Positions 2,474 through 15,921 of a stretch of DNA of 64,000 nt are shown here, piece after piece. Source of the DNA: Escherichia phage vB_EcoM-Pr103Blw; sequence record MW481326.1. The stretch is one strand, 5' to 3'. The position numbers and the translations under genes were made by a program. The stretch's first letter is position 1, and every line of letters starts with the position of its first letter. Under the pieces are notes generated by a model. That model was not told the DNA's origin, ran no database searches, and was given only the letters and a program-made list of their open reading frames with translations.

Positions 2474-2920
2474 ATGGCTATGTATCAGCAATATTCCCCT
2501 AAAGACGTTGTGTGTAGCTGGAATGGTATTGCCATTGAAGGCTTTGCCCCAGACTCATTCTTACGTCTACAGAGAACATCACCACTTGTAACACCAGTTG
2601 TAGGTGCAGGTGGTCAAGTTGCTCTGACAAGAAATGCAGACAAGACAGGTACTATTGAGATTGAGCTAATGCAGACTTCTCTCTCTAACCAGATGCTTTC
2701 TGCAATTCAAGCTAAACAAGACAATATGGAACTTGAAGAAGATATCTCTTCTAACTTCGTAATCTACGACCCATCAGGCTCTGTTCTGGCAACTGGTATT
2801 AATGCTTGGTTGCAGGAATTACCACAGATTGAACTTGGTCGTGACCAGAACTCTAAGACTTGGATTTTTGGTTGTGAGAAGCTAGACTACACTTCTACAA
2901 TTCCAGCGTCAAGTGTTTAA
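2474..2920 (+). CDS. putative tail tube protein
   Basis: 148 aa directly after putative sheath, followed by strong terminator as expected for abundant tube gene. Confidence 0.5.
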   Translation: MAMYQQYSPKDVVCSWNGIAIEGFAPDSFLRLQRTSPLVTPVVGAGGQVALTRNADKTGTIEIELMQTSLSNQMLSAIQAKQDNMELEEDISSNFVIYDPSGSVLATGINAWLQELPQIELGRDQNSKTWIFGCEKLDYTSTIPASSV

Positions 2921-2932
2921 TAAATCCTATAA

Positions 2933-2965
2933 GGGGGAGACTTTAAAAGGTCTTCCCCTTTTTTG
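2933..2965 (+). terminator. rho-independent terminator
   Basis: GGGGAGAC-tttaaaag-GTCTTCCCC stem-loop followed by TTTTTTG. Confidence 0.6.
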
Positions 2966-2992
2966 TTTCTTTTAAAGTATTAAGGAATCACA

Positions 2993-3391
2993 ATGAAAAC
3001 AGAATTTAGAGTAATTAATGGTAAGAAAGTAAATATCGTTCTGCTTGGGGCAAGAGATGGTATTAAGATGTCTATGAAGTTGGGTAAAATTGTTGTTCCA
3101 ACTTTTGCACAGATGCTGTCAAGTCTGACTGATAAAGATAAGAAAGAAGCTCCAATGGTTCCATTTAAAGAACTTGTTGAAGCTTGTTTTGACAGAATTG
3201 AAGAAATTAACCTTGAAGAAATGGCTACCTTACTATTTCAAGGGGCAACTGTTGATGACTTCCCACTAAATATTGATACCTATTTCCAAGCAAACTACGG
3301 TGAATTTATTGACTACTTAGCATTTGCGCTGGAGGCAAACTTCGGAAGTTTTTTCGAAGCAAGCATTTTCAAAAGCCTAACTTCTCAGTAA
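2993..3391 (+). CDS. putative tail assembly chaperone
   Basis: 132-aa acidic protein between tube and tape measure genes. Confidence 0.4.
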   Translation: MKTEFRVINGKKVNIVLLGARDGIKMSMKLGKIVVPTFAQMLSSLTDKDKKEAPMVPFKELVEACFDRIEEINLEEMATLLFQGATVDDFPLNIDTYFQANYGEFIDYLAFALEANFGSFFEASIFKSLTSQ

Positions 3392-3393
3392 AC

Positions 3394-3632
3394 ATGGGTA
3401 ACACTCTACAGACACCACTAACTGATGCTGCTGTAGAGGCAACCTATGAAGAAGCAGACGAGATGAAATTTGTGCTTGCTATTTATGGTATGGAAGGGTG
3501 TAAAGAAACACTTGACCAACTCTTTGCTATGACATTCTCTGATTTATTATCATTGAGACAATTTCTTGAGATTCAGAGGTCGTATAAAGAGGAAATTGCT
3601 TACAACGAACTTAGAAGAGCAGGAAAAATGTA

Positions 3633-3633
<1 letters not shown>
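3394..3633 (+). CDS. putative tail assembly protein
   Basis: 79-aa ORF immediately upstream of tape measure; ATGA-type coupling to next gene. Confidence 0.35.
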
Positions 3634-9017
<5,384 letters not shown>

Positions 9018-10489: not shown

Positions 10490-11344
10490 ATGTTTGAAAA
10501 GATTGATAGTGTTTACTATAAAACACTTGATGAAAGGACTGTAACACAGTTTAAAGATAAATTTATCTATACAAGTATCTTGAAAGCAATCACTGATGAA
10601 TTACAAACTCTAGAGGATGTTTGCTGGCAGATGCACACAGAGAGAAATATCAGGACGTCAGTAGGCCAACAACTTGATAACATTGGCTCACTGATTAAAG
10701 TTCCTAGACCTTTAGGTGCAGATGATGAAACATATAGGGCTATGCTTTATATCCAAATCTTCCTAAGACGCTCTGACACCACCCCAACATTCTTGCAAAA
10801 AGCAATTATGACGCTATATGGTGCAACTTTCTCTCAGATTTTTGAGCATATTACTCCTAAGACTGGTGGTATCGTTATCCGTATCAACACTAGAAAAAGC
10901 GTTCTAGATGCTGCATATACATTGTCAAAGATTTCTGCAACAACTACTGGCTCCGCTGTCATCTTAAGAGATGTTACTTTAAATGGAACTGCTTGGACTC
11001 CTGTAGAGGTTGCTGATTCATCACTTGCTATTGTTGATGATAAAGAGAACTGGTTTGTAACTGATGCTAACAGAGGTCTTGTCACAAATAACACTGGCGG
11101 CTCTCTGGAGTCCAACTTAGTAGGTAGTCTTGCAGATGCTGGTGTTATTGATGGTTACTTTAAGGTTGACAGAACAGCAAACCCACAGAGCGATGATTAT
11201 ATGACTGTAGATAGGTCTAATAATAGTGGCTATTTCATTGCTGGTAAAGAAGCTATTGCAGGTGGTGCATATGGAATCATGGCTGAGGTTGCACAAATTG
11301 TCAAAGGCAGAAAAGATAAATCACAACAAGAAGGAAATTCTTAA
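10490..11344 (+). CDS. putative baseplate/tail-fiber attachment protein
   Basis: 284 aa between J-like gene and tail fibers. Confidence 0.35.
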
Positions 11345-11646
11345 TGGCAGTTCTAAATTGGTCTACAAACGAAGTAGATACTGATGGTAATCAGTTAAAA
11401 GTTTTACCACCACCGGAAGTTCAAGAGACAGGTCTTTTAAAGGGTGAGCCTATGGGTAGACAGTGGTTCAACTATATTATCAACTACCTGCTGAATAAAG
11501 TAAATGGCACTGTTGGTGAAGTTCGTTCATATGCAACTGAGCAACCAGATTTAGTGGCTAATGGCTGGAATCTCATTAAGTCTGAGACAGGGACTGCATC
11601 AACAAGTACAAGAAACCTTTACACATATGAATACGTAGGAGCTTAA
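11344..11646 (+). CDS. hypothetical tail protein
   Basis: 100 aa, ATGA-coupled, precedes fiber genes. Confidence 0.35.
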
Positions 11647-11648
11647 TA

Positions 11649-12824
11649 ATGGCAGTAGGTGAAATTCAAATTAGTGCCTTGCCACAAGCGGCCTTACCAG
11701 TTGATTTGAGTGATATCTTCCACCTTAAGCAAGGTGTTGAGGATAAAAGATGTACGCTTGAGCAGTTGTTAGCACCTCACGCATCTTTGAGGAATAACCC
11801 TCATGGTGTAACTAAATCACAAGTAGGTCTTGATAATGTTATTAACTCTCTTCAATTAGTTGCAGCTAATAACTTGTCAGATATTGTAAGTGTTGCTGAG
11901 GCAAGAGCAAATCTACAAATTATGTCGTCAGAGGAAGTGAATAACTTAATTCAGCAACATATTGACGACAAAAGTAACCCACACAATACAACGAAAGCGC
12001 AGGTCGGTTTAAGTAATGTTCAGAACTGGACAACATCTAATCTGTACAATGAAGATGCTGATAAGTATGCTACCGCGAGAGCAGTGAATAATTTATACAA
12101 AGCTATCCAAGCATCATATCCAGTAGGGACTATTCATCTATCTGTTAACTCTGCTAACCCATCCACTTACTTGCTTTGTGGAGGTACTTGGGAGTTAGTT
12201 TCCAAAGGTAGAGCACTAGTTGGTTATGATACAGATTCTAGACCTGTTGGTTCAATGTTTGGTTCTCAGACTGTAGCATTAACAAATAATAATTTACCAG
12301 CGCATACTCACTCTATCTATCTAACAGGTGGTGGTCATACACACTCTGCAAGCGTATCTATCTCTAGCTTTGATTATGGTTCAAAAAGTACATCGACTTT
12401 TGATTATGGTACGAAGACAACTAACAGTGCTGGTGCTCACACGCACACGTTTAGTGGCACAACAAGCAATGCTGGTAACCACAACCATAGAGTACCTATG
12501 AGGGGTAATGATAGAGGTGGTACAAATGCTATTACTGCATCTGCTGATGCTGGTGTTGGTAATGCTATGTATACTGATTTAGCTGGTGCTCACACCCATA
12601 GCTTCTCAGGCACAACTGCATCATCTGGTGCTCATAGTCATACTGTTGCAATTGGTGCTCATAGTCACACTGTTAATATTGGTTCACACAGTCATACAGG
12701 TACTGTTACTGTTTCTAGCTCCGAGCATACACACTCAGGAACATCTGGTTCTGTTGGTGGTGGTCAAGCTTTCAGTATTGAGCAACCATCTTTTGTAGTA
12801 TATGTGTGGCAGAGAACAGTTTAA
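11649..12824 (+). CDS. tail fiber protein with His-x-His repeat tip
   Basis: 391 aa; repeated AGAHTHTFSGTT / GAHSHTV / GSHSHTG motifs as in the metal-binding needle of T4 gp37-type fibers. Confidence 0.7.
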   Translation: MAVGEIQISALPQAALPVDLSDIFHLKQGVEDKRCTLEQLLAPHASLRNNPHGVTKSQVGLDNVINSLQLVAANNLSDIVSVAEARANLQIMSSEEVNNLIQQHIDDKSNPHNTTKAQVGLSNVQNWTTSNLYNEDADKYATARAVNNLYKAIQASYPVGTIHLSVNSANPSTYLLCGGTWELVSKGRALVGYDTDSRPVGSMFGSQTVALTNNNLPAHTHSIYLTGGGHTHSASVSISSFDYGSKSTSTFDYGTKTTNSAGAHTHTFSGTTSNAGNHNHRVPMRGNDRGGTNAITASADAGVGNAMYTDLAGAHTHSFSGTTASSGAHSHTVAIGAHSHTVNIGSHSHTGTVTVSSSEHTHSGTSGSVGGGQAFSIEQPSFVVYVWQRTV

Positions 12825-12833
12825 TTTCTTTAC

Positions 12834-12856
12834 AGGGGCTTTATAGCCCCTTTTAA
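12834..12856 (+). terminator. terminator-like hairpin
   Basis: AGGGGCT-ttat-AGCCCCT followed by TTTTAAG. Confidence 0.45.
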
Positions 12857-12870
12857 GAGGAAAATTCATA

Positions 12871-15243
12871 ATGGCAGATTACAAATTGAGTCAATTAAAC
12901 TCAATCGACACAATTCGTTCAGAAGACCTATTGCACATCAGAGTTAAGAAAAGACCTGAAATGTTGGGTGACGAAGACCGTAGAATGACCTATCAAGACT
13001 TCTTAGCTTCCTTCAAACTAGAAAGGTTTGTTCAGATTGCTGGTAGCACTATGACGGGTGATTTAGGTATTGTCAAGTTACTTTACGGTGGCAAGGCTGT
13101 ATTTGACCCTACAGGCTCTTCTGAGATTACTATTGGGGATATTTTAAAGACTTTTAAAATTAACTCAAATGGTCTTAAACTCACTATTGCAGATGCTTCA
13201 AGGTCAGCAACTGTTTATCATACTTTGAATAAACCAAGCCCTAATGAACTTGGTATGAGAACTAATGAAGAGAATGATGCGAGATATGCAAGACTTGCTG
13301 TCACAAACACATTCTCTGGAACTCAGAACATTCAAGGTGATGCTAACTTACTTCGCCTTAGAAACCAAAATGCAAACAATGCACAATACATTGAAGGTGT
13401 AAACCTAGATGGTTCAGCTAGATGGTGGGTTGGTATTGGTAGTAATGGTTCTGATGAAGTGAAGCTGTATAATAACAAATATAATTCAGCCTTGACTGTT
13501 GCAAGCAATATCTCTGTTAATAAATCTTTAGCAATCACTGGTCAAGTTCAACCTTCAGATTTCTCTAACTTAGATGCTAGATACTTCACTCAGACAGTTG
13601 CTAATCAGAGATTTGCACAGTTAGCTGCTAATAACAATTTTACTGGAACAAACACATTCAGCAGAAACCTCACCATCATCAGTGATAGTGCTGCTTTAAG
13701 GTTGAAAAATGCAACAGCTAGCTCACTATTCATTCAGGGTGTTGACTCTCAGAACACTAACAGGTGGTATGTAGGGAACGGGGATAACACAGCCTCTGTG
13801 CTGTTACACAACTATGTACACGGTTCAAATATTAGGCTTGATAATGGCTATATCTCAGTCAACCAGAACTTCAGAATCACTGGTCAAGTTCAACCTTCAG
13901 ATTGGGCTAACATTGACTCTAGATATATTCCGGCAGCAACATTAAGTACTATTGCAAGAACTAATGCACAAAACACTTTTAACGGTGTACAGAAAGTTGT
14001 TACGGATAATGAAGCTCTAATTTTGAAAAACTCTACTCAGAACAGACCATTGTATATCCGTGGTGTGGACACTGCTAATGTGTCAAGGTGGTGGGTAGGT
14101 GTTGGTGGGGCAGATACTAATGATGTTACCCTAAATAACAGTTTTTCTGGCACTCAGTTAGTTTTAGGTAACTCATCTGCAAGCATCAATAAGACACTAT
14201 CTCTGACTGGACAGATTCAACCTTCAGATTTCTCTAACTTAGATGCCAGATATTATACGCAATCTGTCGCAAACTCTAGGTACATGCTTGCTGTATCTAC
14301 TGGTTCTGGTACAGAGGTTGGTGATGGAGATGGTATTGCTTGGAATGCTAGAACTGGTTTGTATAATGTTACAGGGAAAACTGGCGGTTCAACACAACTG
14401 GTTTATCAGATGTTTATCGGTGGTGGTTCAACACCAACTGCACAGTTGAAGTTTAGCTACGGGAATGGTGGTATTTTGTACAGGACAGCACGAGATGGGT
14501 ATGGTTTTGAGAAGGCATGGGCTAAAATCTATACAGACCAAGATAAACCAACCCCTTCAGATATTGGTGCATACACTAAAGCAGAAACTGACCAGAGAAT
14601 CGCAGAAGCAATTAGTGACTCTACAGACCTGAATAAAATCTATCCAGTAGGTATTGTGACGTGGTTTAACAGTAATGTCAACCCCAACACAGCACTTCCT
14701 GGGTTAACTTGGACGTACCTGAACAATGGTGTTGGTAGAACTATTAGAATTGCAGCAGCAAACGGTTCAGATGTTGCTACAACTGGTGGTTCAGACTCTG
14801 TAACGTTATCTGTTGGTAACTTACCTTCACATACACACAGCTTCTCTGCTACCACTTCATCATTTGATTATGGTACTAAGACTTCTAGCACAACTGGTAA
14901 CCATAACCACAACAGAGGTACTATGGAGATTACTGGTACAGTGGGTTACTTTAGAAGTGACTCTAGCAGCTTCTACACAGCAAGTGGTGCATTCACACTT
15001 GGTAGCTCAACTGCTTCTAAAGGCTTCACTGGTTCTAACTTTACTTATGGTATCCCTGCTAACTTTAATGCGTCAAGAACTTGGTCTGGCGTTACTAACA
15101 CAACTGGTAACCATAACCATACTGTAGGTATTGGTGCTCACAACCACACAGTTAGCGGTAACACAGGTGGTACTGGTTCTGGTTCAGCATTTAGTGTTAC
15201 TAACCAGTTCTATAAGTTAATGGCTTGGGTAAGAACTGCTTAA
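12871..15243 (+). CDS. long tail fiber protein with internal triplicated repeat and His-x-His tip
   Basis: 790 aa; three ~110-aa repeats (ITGQVQPSDFSNLDARY...); C-terminal HTHSFSATT/GNHNHTVGIGAHNHTV like the upstream fiber. Confidence 0.7.
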   Translation: MADYKLSQLNSIDTIRSEDLLHIRVKKRPEMLGDEDRRMTYQDFLASFKLERFVQIAGSTMTGDLGIVKLLYGGKAVFDPTGSSEITIGDILKTFKINSNGLKLTIADASRSATVYHTLNKPSPNELGMRTNEENDARYARLAVTNTFSGTQNIQGDANLLRLRNQNANNAQYIEGVNLDGSARWWVGIGSNGSDEVKLYNNKYNSALTVASNISVNKSLAITGQVQPSDFSNLDARYFTQTVANQRFAQLAANNNFTGTNTFSRNLTIISDSAALRLKNATASSLFIQGVDSQNTNRWYVGNGDNTASVLLHNYVHGSNIRLDNGYISVNQNFRITGQVQPSDWANIDSRYIPAATLSTIARTNAQNTFNGVQKVVTDNEALILKNSTQNRPLYIRGVDTANVSRWWVGVGGADTNDVTLNNSFSGTQLVLGNSSASINKTLSLTGQIQPSDFSNLDARYYTQSVANSRYMLAVSTGSGTEVGDGDGIAWNARTGLYNVTGKTGGSTQLVYQMFIGGGSTPTAQLKFSYGNGGILYRTARDGYGFEKAWAKIYTDQDKPTPSDIGAYTKAETDQRIAEAISDSTDLNKIYPVGIVTWFNSNVNPNTALPGLTWTYLNNGVGRTIRIAAANGSDVATTGGSDSVTLSVGNLPSHTHSFSATTSSFDYGTKTSSTTGNHNHNRGTMEITGTVGYFRSDSSSFYTASGAFTLGSSTASKGFTGSNFTYGIPANFNASRTWSGVTNTTGNHNHTVGIGAHNHTVSGNTGGTGSGSAFSVTNQFYKLMAWVRTA
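13537..14262 (+). repeat. in-frame intragenic direct repeats (3 copies, period ~330-340 bp) in long fiber gene
   Basis: actggtcaagttcaaccttcagat...ctagat recurs at about 13540, 13880 and 14210. Confidence 0.7.
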
Positions 15244-15322: not shown

Positions 15323-15520
15323 ATGCCTACAATCCTAGCAATTCTTCTAAAAAATCTAGGTAGCTTCTTCTGGAAACTCATTTTATCCCTTCTAAGTGAA
15401 TACATGATTGAGAAAGTGTTCTTTAAGCTTGCAAGATATCTTGCGAGTAAGACAGACACACCTATTGATGATGAGTTCGTAGATAACTTAGAAAAAGCTT
15501 TTAAGGGGGAGAATAAATGA
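15323..15520 (+). CDS. small membrane protein (possibly holin-like)
   Basis: 65 aa, hydrophobic N-terminal half (ILAILLKNLGSFFWKLILSLL), downstream of fibers. Confidence 0.35.
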   Translation: MPTILAILLKNLGSFFWKLILSLLSEYMIEKVFFKLARYLASKTDTPIDDEFVDNLEKAFKGENK

Positions 15521-15888
15521 AGTGGCTAGAGGATGCTTTTAAAAATAATATTGGTGCAATTGTAGTTGGTATTTTTAGTGTTATTGGGATGTATACCACG
15601 ATGCAAGTTTCAAGTGGTAAGCAAGAAGTGTCTGTCACAACGAAGTTACAGCAGCTAGATAATTATTCCAAAAGTAACTATTCAGCTATTCGTGATTTAC
15701 AGTCTGACATGAGACTTATTCAGTTAGGGATGGAGAATCAGAAAGTTCAGTTAGAGAATGTTAAGGGTGAGAATGCAAAACTTACCAAAACTCTTGATAA
15801 GTTCTCTGACAGTGTAAATAATCTGGCTCAATCAGTATCAGCCCTCCAAGCTATTACTGAGAAGAACACAAAAAGTACTGAAAAATAA
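15517..15888 (+). CDS. membrane-anchored coiled-coil protein
   Basis: 123 aa; N-terminal TM (IGAIVVGIFSVIGMY) then heptad-rich region; ATGA overlap with previous ORF. Confidence 0.4.
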   Translation: MKWLEDAFKNNIGAIVVGIFSVIGMYTTMQVSSGKQEVSVTTKLQQLDNYSKSNYSAIRDLQSDMRLIQLGMENQKVQLENVKGENAKLTKTLDKFSDSVNNLAQSVSALQAITEKNTKSTEK

Positions 15889-15895
15889 AGTTTAA

Positions 15896-15921
15896 GGCTC
15901 CCGTAAAAAGGAGCCTTTTTT
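15896..15921 (+). terminator. rho-independent terminator between convergent blocks
   Basis: GGCTCC-cgtaaaaa-GGAGCC followed by TTTTTTG; sits between + strand late genes and - strand thyA. Confidence 0.6.

What the first reader, a model, noticed from the sequence alone, without database searches (positions are those of the whole stretch)
11649..15243. Two tail-fiber genes sharing a His-x-His tip module; the longer one carries an internal in-frame triplication
Both fiber proteins end in a domain rich in HxH repeats (AGAHTHTFSGTT, GAHSHTVAIGAHSHTV; HTHSFSATT, GNHNHTVGIGAHNHTV) and similar last residues (AFSIEQPSFVVYVWQRTV versus AFSVTNQFYKLMAWVRTA), resembling the metal-coordinating needle tip of T4 gp37-type fibers. 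The 790-aa fiber also has three consecutive ~110-aa repeats, visible at DNA level with a ~330-bp period. Shared tips on distinct shafts plus expandable repeats are a substrate for recombination-driven host-range change. The alternative-frame track ORFs inside these genes (12586..12798, 14813..15127) are repeat artefacts.
Basis: partly seen in the sequence, partly recalled or inferred. Interest (0 to 1): 0.45.

Follow-up and report, generated by a model that had tools for sequence, protein, structure and literature searches.

The report
Felix O1-type phage tail fibre pair

Summary
Observation confirmed, interpretation supported, not novel.

- **Genes:** 11649..12824 (391 aa) and 12871..15243 (790 aa) are adjacent + strand genes. 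They are 92-95% identical in DNA to the tail fibre pair of Felixounavirus phages.
- **Shared tips:** the two C-terminal regions are homologous (31% identity, E 1.3e-15 with composition correction). The 391-aa protein matches the solved T4 gp37 tip (2XGF) at E 8e-27, with HxH motifs aligned. HxH counts are 9 and 4; no shuffle of 20,000 reached either.
- **Triplication:** the 790-aa protein has three units of about 110 aa, 40-45% identical (E 1e-19 to 8e-27). They match Pfam gp37_trimer three times. DNA similarity between units is limited to the linker-coding ends.
- **Prior work:** VpaE1 (2015) reported gp37 homology of both fibres. The Bas63 cryo-EM paper (2025) described the collar, HxH needle and head tip on both fibres, and a repeat-domain shaft on the long one.
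- **Extras found here:** the long fibre is a cassette mosaic with conserved linkers. Felix O1's two fibres share one needle+head module (83% aa) although their collars are only 32% identical. Syntenic uncultured relatives carry 4 or 5 repeat units. The alternative-frame ORFs are not conserved.

The parts
11649..12824 (+). Short tail fibre gene (STF, 391 aa); orthologue of Felix O1 ORF76
   Evidence: ORF. PHROG 2097 tail fiber, 1e-138. 84-95% nt identity to felixounaviruses. Syntenic position. Counterpart of the Bas63 gp26 STF inferred from position and architecture, not aligned to it directly.
11649..12080 (+). STF N-terminal baseplate-binding region and short shaft, with two NPHxxTKxQ(V/I)GL motifs (aa 1-144)
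   Evidence: Highly conserved among 6 phages. Function inferred from the Bas63 description of the baseplate-binding domain and the helix-and-turn motifs.
12081..12293 (+). STF collar domain (about aa 145-215)
   Evidence: Pfam Gp10_C over aa 154-276, 67.3 bits against a cutoff of 27. Matches T4 gp10 structures 2FKK and 5HX2 at 3e-6, and the start of the 2XGF alignment. Boundary inferred.
12294..12494 (+). STF ascending needle strand with HxH at aa 219, 230, 264 and 278
   Evidence: HxH positions. Aligned to the T4 gp37 needle in 2XGF.
12495..12584 (+). STF head insert (about aa 283-312), His-free and variable; the putative receptor-contact region
   Evidence: Variable among 6 phages while the flanks are conserved. 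The head role is inferred from T4 gp37 and Bas63.
12585..12824 (+). STF descending needle strand (HxH at aa 315, 329, 338, 347, 360) and conserved C-terminal return strand
   Evidence: A tandem 27-nt period encoding (A/S)HSHTV(A/N)IG lies at 12615-12694.
12871..15243 (+). Long tail fibre gene (LTF, 790 aa); orthologue of Felix O1 ORF77
   Evidence: ORF. PHROG 4277, full length, E 0. Close homologues reach 99% identity. Counterpart of the Bas63 gp27 LTF inferred from position and architecture, not aligned to it directly.
12871..13245 (+). LTF N-terminal baseplate-binding region and first shaft domain (aa 1-125); not related in sequence to the repeats
   Evidence: 91-100% identical to the window across 119 homologues. 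The unit HMM finds no match here.
13246..13578 (+). Repeat unit R1 (aa 126-236), Pfam gp37_trimer
   Evidence: 71% identical to unit 4 of the five-unit relative P0121.
13579..13920 (+). Repeat unit R2 (aa 237-350), Pfam gp37_trimer; its body is a variable cassette
   Evidence: Matches the T7 gp17 fibre C-terminal structure 4A0T at 1e-6. The body, aa 256-330, is only 43-64% identical to the window across homologues and is replaced in phage H12.
13921..14262 (+). Repeat unit R3 (aa 351-464), Pfam gp37_trimer
   Evidence: The linker QPSDFSNLDARY is conserved and shares about 31 nt exactly with the R1 linker.
14263..14625 (+). Fifth shaft domain (aa 465-585), Pfam gp37_C, related to phage Mu tail fibre protein S; a swappable cassette
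   Evidence: PF12604, 70.6 bits. 8JU3 Mu tail fibre at 1.3e-22. Replaced by a domain about 60 aa longer in the 846-850-aa class (JN01, H12) and by a third type in XTG1.
14626..14820 (+). LTF collar domain (about aa 586-650), almost invariant
   Evidence: 99-100% conserved across 119 homologues. Gp10_C at 25.2 bits, just under the 27-bit cutoff. Aligns to the STF collar.
14821..15243 (+). LTF needle and head: HxH at aa 654 and 678, a His-free variable head of about 65 aa (about aa 682-745), HxH at aa 748 and 757, then an invariant C-terminal strand
   Evidence: 2XGF match at E 0.003 over the needle motifs only. Salmonella phages lose DNA similarity at window position ~14890, inside this part.
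12586..12798 (+). Alternative-frame ORF (70 aa) inside the STF tip; not a gene
   Evidence: +1 frame over Gly/Thr/His/Ser/Ala-rich codons. Low-complexity Leu/Val translation. Not open in Felix O1.
14813..15127 (+). Alternative-frame ORF (104 aa) inside the LTF tip; not a gene
   Evidence: Same +1 frame effect. Shortened to 49 codons in H12 and absent in Felix O1.

Best explanation
The region encodes the two receptor-binding fibres of a Felixounavirus (Felix O1-like myovirus): a short fibre (STF, 391 aa) and a long fibre (LTF, 790 aa). They sit directly after the baseplate wedge genes.

Both proteins are expected to form homotrimers. Each has an N-terminal baseplate-binding part and a C-terminal T4 gp37-type tip. 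That tip consists of:
- a collar domain;
- a needle in which the chain runs out, forms a small head, and runs back;
- HxH motifs from the three chains that face the axis and coordinate metal ions (Fe2+ in T4).

By this model the STF has up to 9 metal sites and the LTF 4. The variable His-free insert between the two HxH blocks is the head that contacts the receptor. For this genus the receptor is the LPS core or O-antigen.

The LTF shaft has, in order:
- an N-terminal domain;
- three sequence-related units of about 110 aa (Pfam gp37_trimer, related to the T7 gp17 fibre C-terminal region);
- a Mu-S-like gp37_C domain.
The shaft domains are joined by conserved (Q/K)P(S/T)..D/E..(A)RY-type linkers.

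Host range evolves by swapping cassettes (repeat bodies, the fifth domain, the head) through recombination at the conserved linkers, collar and C-terminus.

Shown here: homology, domain content, mosaic pattern and copy-number variation. Inferred from T4 and Bas63: trimer state, metal binding, chain reversal and receptor contact.
For: - **Identity:** 92-95% nt identity to felixounaviruses across the region and across the first 25 kb. Gene order is the same in five annotated genomes.
- **Families:** PHROG tail fibre families at 1e-138 and E 0. Pfam Gp10_C, gp37_trimer x3 and gp37_C.
- **Solved structures:** STF aa 145-362 against the T4 gp37 tip 2XGF at E 8e-27, with HxH motifs and FDYGTK aligned. 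T4 gp10 at 3e-6. LTF against the Mu tail fibre 8JU3 at 1e-22, T7 gp17 4A0T at 1e-6 and 2XGF at 0.002-0.003.
- **Paralogy of the tips:** E 1.3e-15.
- **HxH enrichment:** 0 of 20,000 shuffles reached the observed counts.
- **Literature:** VpaE1 gp74 and gp75 were both reported homologous to the T4 gp37 adhesin, with an LPS-core receptor (PMC4690856). Bas63 cryo-EM shows an STF and an LTF, each with a collar, HxH needle and head tip, and an LTF with repeat domains resembling T4 gp34 (PMC12609058).
- **Mosaic:** conserved linkers, collar and C-terminus, against variable R2 and R3 bodies, fifth domain and head.
- **Exchange between paralogues:** Felix O1 STF and LTF needle+head are 83% aa and 81% nt identical over 270 nt, while their collars are 32% identical.
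- **Copy number:** 3 units in felixounaviruses. 4 and 5 units in syntenic uncultured relatives, with a position-shifted unit at 71% identity.
Against:
- The AlphaFold2 monomer model is poor: mean pLDDT 49.5, and the whole tip is below 50. The fold search on it gives low TM-scores.
- The LTF tip matches 2XGF only weakly (E 0.003, with a strong composition bias), and its head has no detectable similarity to the T4 head.
- LTF Gp10_C scores 25.2 bits, just under Pfam's 27-bit cutoff.
- The 81% nt identity of the shared Felix O1 module shows the exchange is not recent. It could also reflect two separate acquisitions from one donor.
Confidence: 0.93

Rival explanations
1. The resemblance between the two C-termini is convergent low-complexity composition (Gly/Thr/Ser/His-rich) rather than homology.
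For: HMMER reports a high composition bias for the LTF-2XGF match: bias 40.6 against a score of 17. DNA similarity between the two window tips is limited to patches of 36-54 nt.
Against: BLASTP with composition-based statistics still gives E 1.3e-15 over 221 aa. The alignment starts in the non-repetitive collar, at YPVG..NPNT..W. Both tips share the FDYGTK motif, the GIGAH.HTV motif and the AFS(I/V)..W(Q/V)RT(V/A) end. In Felix O1 the same pair reaches E 1e-52.
Confidence: 0.02
2. The 391-aa protein is a baseplate wedge component of the T4 gp10 type rather than a receptor-binding fibre.
For: Its only Pfam hit above the gathering cutoff is Gp10_C. PHROG 958, baseplate wedge subunit, matches at 1.4e-10. 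The gene lies right after the wedge genes.
Against: The match to the gp37 tip 2XGF is far stronger (8e-27 against 3e-6) and covers the whole needle, which the gp10 matches found here do not reach; they end at STF aa 240. The best PHROG is a tail fibre family at 1e-138. The Bas63 counterpart is seen as a 430-A fibre attached to wedge 2A.
Confidence: 0.03
3. The three-unit array is a recent, unstable tandem duplication whose copy number differs among close relatives and drives rapid host-range change.
For: The linkers share short, near-identical DNA: about 31 nt exact between R1 and R3. Relatives with 4 and 5 copies exist.
Against: The units are only 40-45% identical in protein, and their bodies cannot be aligned as DNA. 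All six felixounaviruses examined have exactly three units. The 119 full-length close homologues listed fall into two length classes, 779-797 and 846-850 aa, explained by the fifth-domain swap. The Bas63 authors also found no variation in repeat number within the genus. The 4- and 5-copy proteins are under 50% identical to any isolated phage.
Confidence: 0.05
4. The alternative-frame ORFs (12586..12798 and 14813..15127) are real overlapping genes.
For: They are 70 and 104 codons long, and similar open +1 frames occur in several relatives.
Against: Their translations are low-complexity Leu/Val/Thr strings. The open frames are absent in Felix O1, and the LTF one is cut to 49 codons in H12, which is otherwise 98% identical in that segment. 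Openness follows from the codon set used there: GGT, ACN, CAY, AGY and GCT give no stop in the +1 frame.
Confidence: 0.01

Closest known systems
Felixounavirus short and long tail fibres (Bas63 gp26/gp27; Felix O1 ORF76/ORF77; VpaE1 gp74/gp75)
   Same: Same gene order, sizes, domain content and a gp37-like tip on both fibres. DNA identity to members of the genus is 84-95%.
   Different: Only allelic. This window combines the Felix O1-type (Mu-S-like) fifth domain with the head type common in O157-infecting phages, which has 4 HxH motifs rather than the 6 in Felix O1 and Bas63. The same combination occurs at 99% identity in a metagenome contig (P0001).
T4 gp37 long tail fibre receptor-binding tip (PDB 2XGF)
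   Same: Collar, then two HxH blocks around a head insert, with the FDYGTK and GIGAHxHTV motifs. STF E 8e-27. In T4 the HxH motifs bind Fe ions along the needle, as summarised.
   Different: The Felixounavirus fibres are single-protein fibres, not a chain of four proteins (gp34 to gp37; from general knowledge of T4). HxH counts are 9 and 4, against 7 in T4. The LTF head is unrelated in sequence. No gp38 or gp57A-type chaperone was looked for here.
T4 gp10 (and, from general knowledge, gp12) C-terminal collar-type domain (Pfam Gp10_C, PF21939)
   Same: The collar part of both tips matches this family.
   Different: The gp10 matches found here end at STF aa 240 and do not cover the long HxH needle and head.
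T7 gp17 fibre C-terminal region, and the T4 gp34 shaft repeats
   Same: LTF repeat unit R2 matches T7 gp17 residues ~368-442 at 1e-6 to 7e-6. The weak fold search also returns T7 gp17 and T4 gp34. The Bas63 authors make the gp34 comparison.
   Different: Here the domain is used three times in tandem as a shaft element. The model behind the fold search is of low confidence.
Phage Mu tail fibre protein S (PDB 8JU3), Pfam gp37_C
   Same: LTF aa 478-580 match Mu S residues 329-429 at E 1.3e-22.
   Different: In the LTF this domain is internal, followed by a gp37-type tip. It is one of at least three interchangeable cassettes at that position.

Membership tests
T4 gp37-type receptor-binding tip (collar-needle-head) | Collar domain homologous to the gp10/gp12/gp37 collar | tested here: met
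   STF: Pfam Gp10_C at 67.3 bits against a cutoff of 27, and 2XGF/2FKK matches. LTF: 25.2 bits, just under the cutoff, but its collar aligns to the STF collar within the E 1.3e-15 alignment.
T4 gp37-type receptor-binding tip (collar-needle-head) | Two blocks of HxH motifs that align with those of gp37, flanking a His-free insert | tested here: met
   STF: 4 + 5 HxH motifs, aligned to 2XGF at E 8e-27. LTF: 2 + 2 HxH motifs, aligned at E 0.003. The enrichment is beyond all 20,000 shuffles.
T4 gp37-type receptor-binding tip (collar-needle-head) | Homotrimer with chain reversal at the head, giving a six-stranded needle | not testable with these tools
   Only a monomer AlphaFold2 run is available, and the tip is below pLDDT 50. 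Reported for the corresponding Bas63 fibres from cryo-EM density with fitted models.
T4 gp37-type receptor-binding tip (collar-needle-head) | Metal ions coordinated octahedrally by the HxH histidines | not testable with these tools
   Inferred from T4 as summarised in PMC12609058. No metal data exist for this protein.
T4 gp37-type receptor-binding tip (collar-needle-head) | Dependence on dedicated fibre chaperones (gp57A and gp38 in T4) | not tested
   The two small downstream ORFs match only PHROGs of unknown function. The rest of the window was not screened.
Pfam gp37_trimer (PF20744) repeat domain | Profile match above the gathering score | tested here: met
   281.1 bits against a cutoff of 21.7, three stretches. 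A unit HMM built here finds exactly three copies.
Pfam gp37_C (PF12604) / Mu S-like domain | Profile match above the gathering score, and similarity to a solved member | tested here: met
   70.6 bits against a cutoff of 22.5. 8JU3 at E 1.3e-22.
Felixounavirus STF/LTF orthologues | Synteny (wedge genes, 100-aa ORF, STF, LTF, two small ORFs, convergent td and frd) and high identity | tested here: met
   with full-length protein alignments. No direct alignment to the Bas63 sequences was made; Felix O1 served as the genus reference.

The most novel reading that the evidence does not exclude
The fibre pair works as a two-level cassette system. Repeat units can be duplicated, moved and exchanged at the conserved linkers, giving 3, 4 or 5 units, with window unit 1 reappearing as unit 4 in a relative. 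The needle+head module can be copied between the short and long fibre of one genome, as in Felix O1. On this reading the variable shaft domains, including the Mu-S-like fifth domain where published challenge mutations map, are secondary lateral receptor-binding sites rather than passive spacers.
Probability: 0.3. Interest if true: 0.4.

Novelty: already known. Interest (0 to 1): 0.15.

Why it matters
Felixounaviruses are used for Salmonella typing and are candidates for biocontrol of E. coli and Salmonella. Their host range is set by these two fibres.

A map of conserved joints (linkers, collar, C-terminal strand) and swappable cassettes (repeat bodies, fifth domain, head) gives practical break points for engineering host range. 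The basic architecture is already published, so the finding itself adds no new biology.

The modest additions are:
- the two Felix O1 fibres share one needle+head module;
- the number of repeat units does vary (3 to 5) outside the cultured genus.

Tried and rejected
- **Tandem Repeats Finder** did not report the ~330-bp array because the copies are too divergent. Whole-protein self-BLAST returned only the identity hit, so the units were compared after splitting.
- **HMM test for a five-fold repeat.** A unit HMM built from 18 units found nothing significant in the LTF N-terminal domain, the fifth domain or the STF. Only three units are related in sequence.
- **AlphaFold2 monomer of the full LTF**, with 46 aligned homologues, gave mean pLDDT 49.5. 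Only the three repeat units reached block means of 70-88, with the fifth domain at 60-74, and the tip was unusable. Foldseek on that model returned Mu S, T7 gp17 and T4 gp34 at TM 0.31 or lower. This is consistent with the sequence results but is not independent evidence.
- **The primary T4 gp37 tip paper** (PMC2996694) is not held in the library. Domain boundaries of gp37 were taken from the summary in PMC12609058 and from the alignment.
- **Literature searches** for recombination or copy-number reports in Felixounavirus fibres found nothing specific.
- **tblastn of the 4- and 5-unit proteins** against isolated phages found nothing above 50% identity, so their hosts are unknown.
- **Explanations considered and rejected:** convergent low complexity, a baseplate gp10 role for the STF, a recent unstable duplication, and real overlapping genes. 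See the rival explanations.


Full report
**What is there**

The window carries two adjacent + strand genes, 11649..12824 (391 aa) and 12871..15243 (790 aa). They follow baseplate genes: a Baseplate_J-like protein, a DUF2612 wedge-like protein and a conserved 100-aa ORF. After them come two small ORFs and the convergent thymidylate synthase and dihydrofolate reductase genes.

Megablast places the region, and the first 25 kb of the window, in the genus Felixounavirus. Identity is 92-95% to E. coli O157-infecting isolates such as H12, JN01 and the typing phages, and about 84% to Salmonella phage Felix O1. Five annotated relatives have the same gene order and call both genes tail fibre genes. I call them STF (short) and LTF (long), following the Bas63 nomenclature.

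**Checking the observation**

The two C-terminal regions are homologous.
- BLASTP with composition-based statistics aligns STF aa 136-342 to LTF aa 564-761 at 31% identity, E 1.3e-15. Without the correction the value is E 3e-25.
- The alignment starts in the non-repetitive collar (YPVG...), so composition alone does not explain it.
- There are 9 HxH motifs in the STF, all within aa 219-362, and 4 in the LTF, at aa 654, 678, 748 and 757. Shuffles give means of 1.4 and 0.17, and none of 20,000 reached the observed counts.

The triplication is real.
- Units aa 126-236, 237-350 and 351-464 are 40-45% identical pairwise, E 1e-19 to 8e-27.
- Pfam gp37_trimer matches three times, 281 bits in total.
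- At the DNA level the ~330-bp period is visible only through the linker-coding ends of the units. One direct-repeat family has 342/327-nt spacing, and BLASTN finds 33-66 nt at 82-93% identity, with about 31 nt exact between units 1 and 3.
- The unit bodies cannot be aligned as DNA, and Tandem Repeats Finder does not report the array.

**What the parts are**

The STF matches the crystal structure sequence of the T4 gp37 receptor-binding tip (2XGF) at E 8e-27 over aa 145-362. FDYGTK, the HxH motifs and GIGAHxHTV are all aligned. It also matches the T4 gp10 C-terminal domain at about 3e-6, and Pfam gives Gp10_C at 67 bits.

The LTF contains the following parts:
- three gp37_trimer units, one of which matches the T7 gp17 C-terminal fibre structure 4A0T at 1e-6;
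- a gp37_C domain that matches the phage Mu tail fibre S structure 8JU3 at 1.3e-22;
- a tip whose needle motifs match 2XGF only weakly (E 0.002-0.003). Its collar scores just under the Gp10_C cutoff.

A unit HMM built from 18 units finds exactly three copies in each of six phages. It finds no relationship to the LTF N-terminal domain, the fifth domain or the STF.

**How it most likely works**

In T4 gp37 and in the Bas63 fibres the tip is a trimer. The chain leaves the collar, runs up a needle, forms a small head and runs back, giving a six-stranded needle. The HxH motifs point inward and in T4 bind Fe ions (PMC12609058).

Transferred to this window, the His-free variable inserts are the heads that touch the receptor. 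They lie at about STF aa 283-312 and LTF aa 682-745. The conserved C-terminal strands (AFSIEQPSFVVYVWQRTV and AFSVTNQFYKLMAWVRTA) most likely return to the collar.

Reported receptors for the genus are LPS structures. VpaE1 uses the incomplete LPS core (PMC4690856). For Felix O1 and Bas63 see PMC8594841.

The trimer state, metal binding and receptor contact are inferences. The only structure prediction available here was an AlphaFold2 monomer, and it was poor: mean pLDDT 49.5, with the tip below 50. The fold search on that model has low TM-scores.

**Comparison with relatives**

I aligned six phages and built a conservation profile over 119 close homologues. Together they show a cassette mosaic in the LTF.

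| LTF segment (aa) | Part | State across homologues |
|---|---|---|
| 1-150 | N-terminal region | conserved |
| 226-255, 331-360, 451-465, 556-585 | linkers | conserved |
| 256-330 | unit 2 body | variable; replaced in H12 |
| 361-450 | unit 3 body | variable |
| 466-555 | fifth domain | variable |
| 586-675 | collar | conserved |
| 676-750 | head | variable |
| 751-790 | C-terminal region | conserved |

- The fifth domain is replaced by a domain about 60 aa longer in the 846-850-aa class, and by a third type in XTG1.
- Salmonella phages lose DNA similarity to the window at about position 14890, inside the tip.

This matches what the Bas63 authors reported: variable tips and variable repeat bodies, with no variation in repeat number within the genus.

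Three further points came out of the comparison.
1. In Felix O1 the needle+head segment of the STF and the LTF is 83% identical in protein and 81% identical in DNA over 270 nt, while the collars are 32% identical. In the window phage the two segments are 30% identical. The tip module has therefore been exchanged between the two paralogues, or acquired twice from one source.
2. A profile of the repeat unit was searched against 1.84 billion representative proteins. It found orthologous fibres with 5 units (1015 aa) and 4 units (901 aa as called). Both lie in fully syntenic contigs of 77 and 87 kb. Both are under 50% identical to any isolated phage.
3. Window unit 1 is 71% identical to unit 4 of the five-unit protein but only 40% identical to its unit 1. 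Units 3 and 5 of that protein are 64% identical to each other. Units have therefore been duplicated and moved.

**Alternative-frame ORFs**

Both lie in the +1 frame over the needle/head-coding DNA. The dominant codons there (GGT, ACN, CAY, AGY, GCT) give no stop in that frame. Their products are Leu/Val-rich strings. The frames are closed in Felix O1, and the LTF one is shortened in H12. They are artefacts of codon composition.

**Novelty**

The gp37 homology of both Felixounavirus fibres was reported for VpaE1 in 2015. The collar-needle-head tip with HxH motifs on both fibres, and the repeat-domain shaft of the LTF, were described from cryo-EM of Bas63 in 2025. This window's allele also exists at 99% identity in public metagenome data. 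The additions made here are incremental.

Noticed in passing
L004 (Felix O1, NC_005282) 1501-2667 and 2718-5066: Felix O1's short and long fibres share almost the same needle+head module: 83% aa identity, and 81% nt identity over 270 nt. Their collars are only 32% identical. In the window phage the two modules are 30% identical.
   Followed up: partly
L006 6001-9048 (Logan SRR22802239) and L007 5001-7706 (ENA ERZ28599557): Syntenic uncultured relatives have long fibres with 5 and 4 gp37_trimer units. Window unit 1 is 71% identical to unit 4 of the five-unit protein, so units have been moved or duplicated. The gene call for the four-unit protein probably starts about 30-50 codons too late.
   Followed up: partly
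window 15894-15917: A bidirectional terminator-like hairpin (AAGGCTCCC...GGAGCCTT, with T runs on both strands) lies between the end of the fibre operon and the convergent thymidylate synthase gene.
   Followed up: no
window 15323-15520 and 15517-15888: Two small overlapping ORFs (65 and 123 aa) with hydrophobic N-termini. They are conserved in all relatives and match PHROG 402 and 4038, both of unknown function. The second is annotated 'holin' in phage JN01, without supporting evidence seen here.
   Followed up: partly
window 11344-11646: A conserved 100-aa ORF directly upstream of the short fibre gene (PHROG 4141, unknown function). It is present at the same place in all syntenic relatives, including the distant ones.
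   Followed up: no
window 14263-14625 (LTF aa 465-585): Mutations at LTF aa 497 and 534, reported after a 12-h challenge of a Felixounavirus on Salmonella Infantis (PMC6669636), would fall in the variable Mu-S-like fifth domain rather than in the tip if numbering is equivalent. This hints at a role for that domain in host recognition.
   Followed up: no
window 12615-12694: A short tandem 27-nt period (2.1-2.6 copies, 80-83% matches) encodes the (A/S)HSHTV(A/N)IG needle repeats of the short fibre.
   Followed up: no
L005 (XTG1, KT184316) 4371-4380: The GenBank record annotates a 10-nt 'cos site' inside the long fibre coding sequence. This looks like a pattern-match annotation rather than a real feature.
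   Followed up: no
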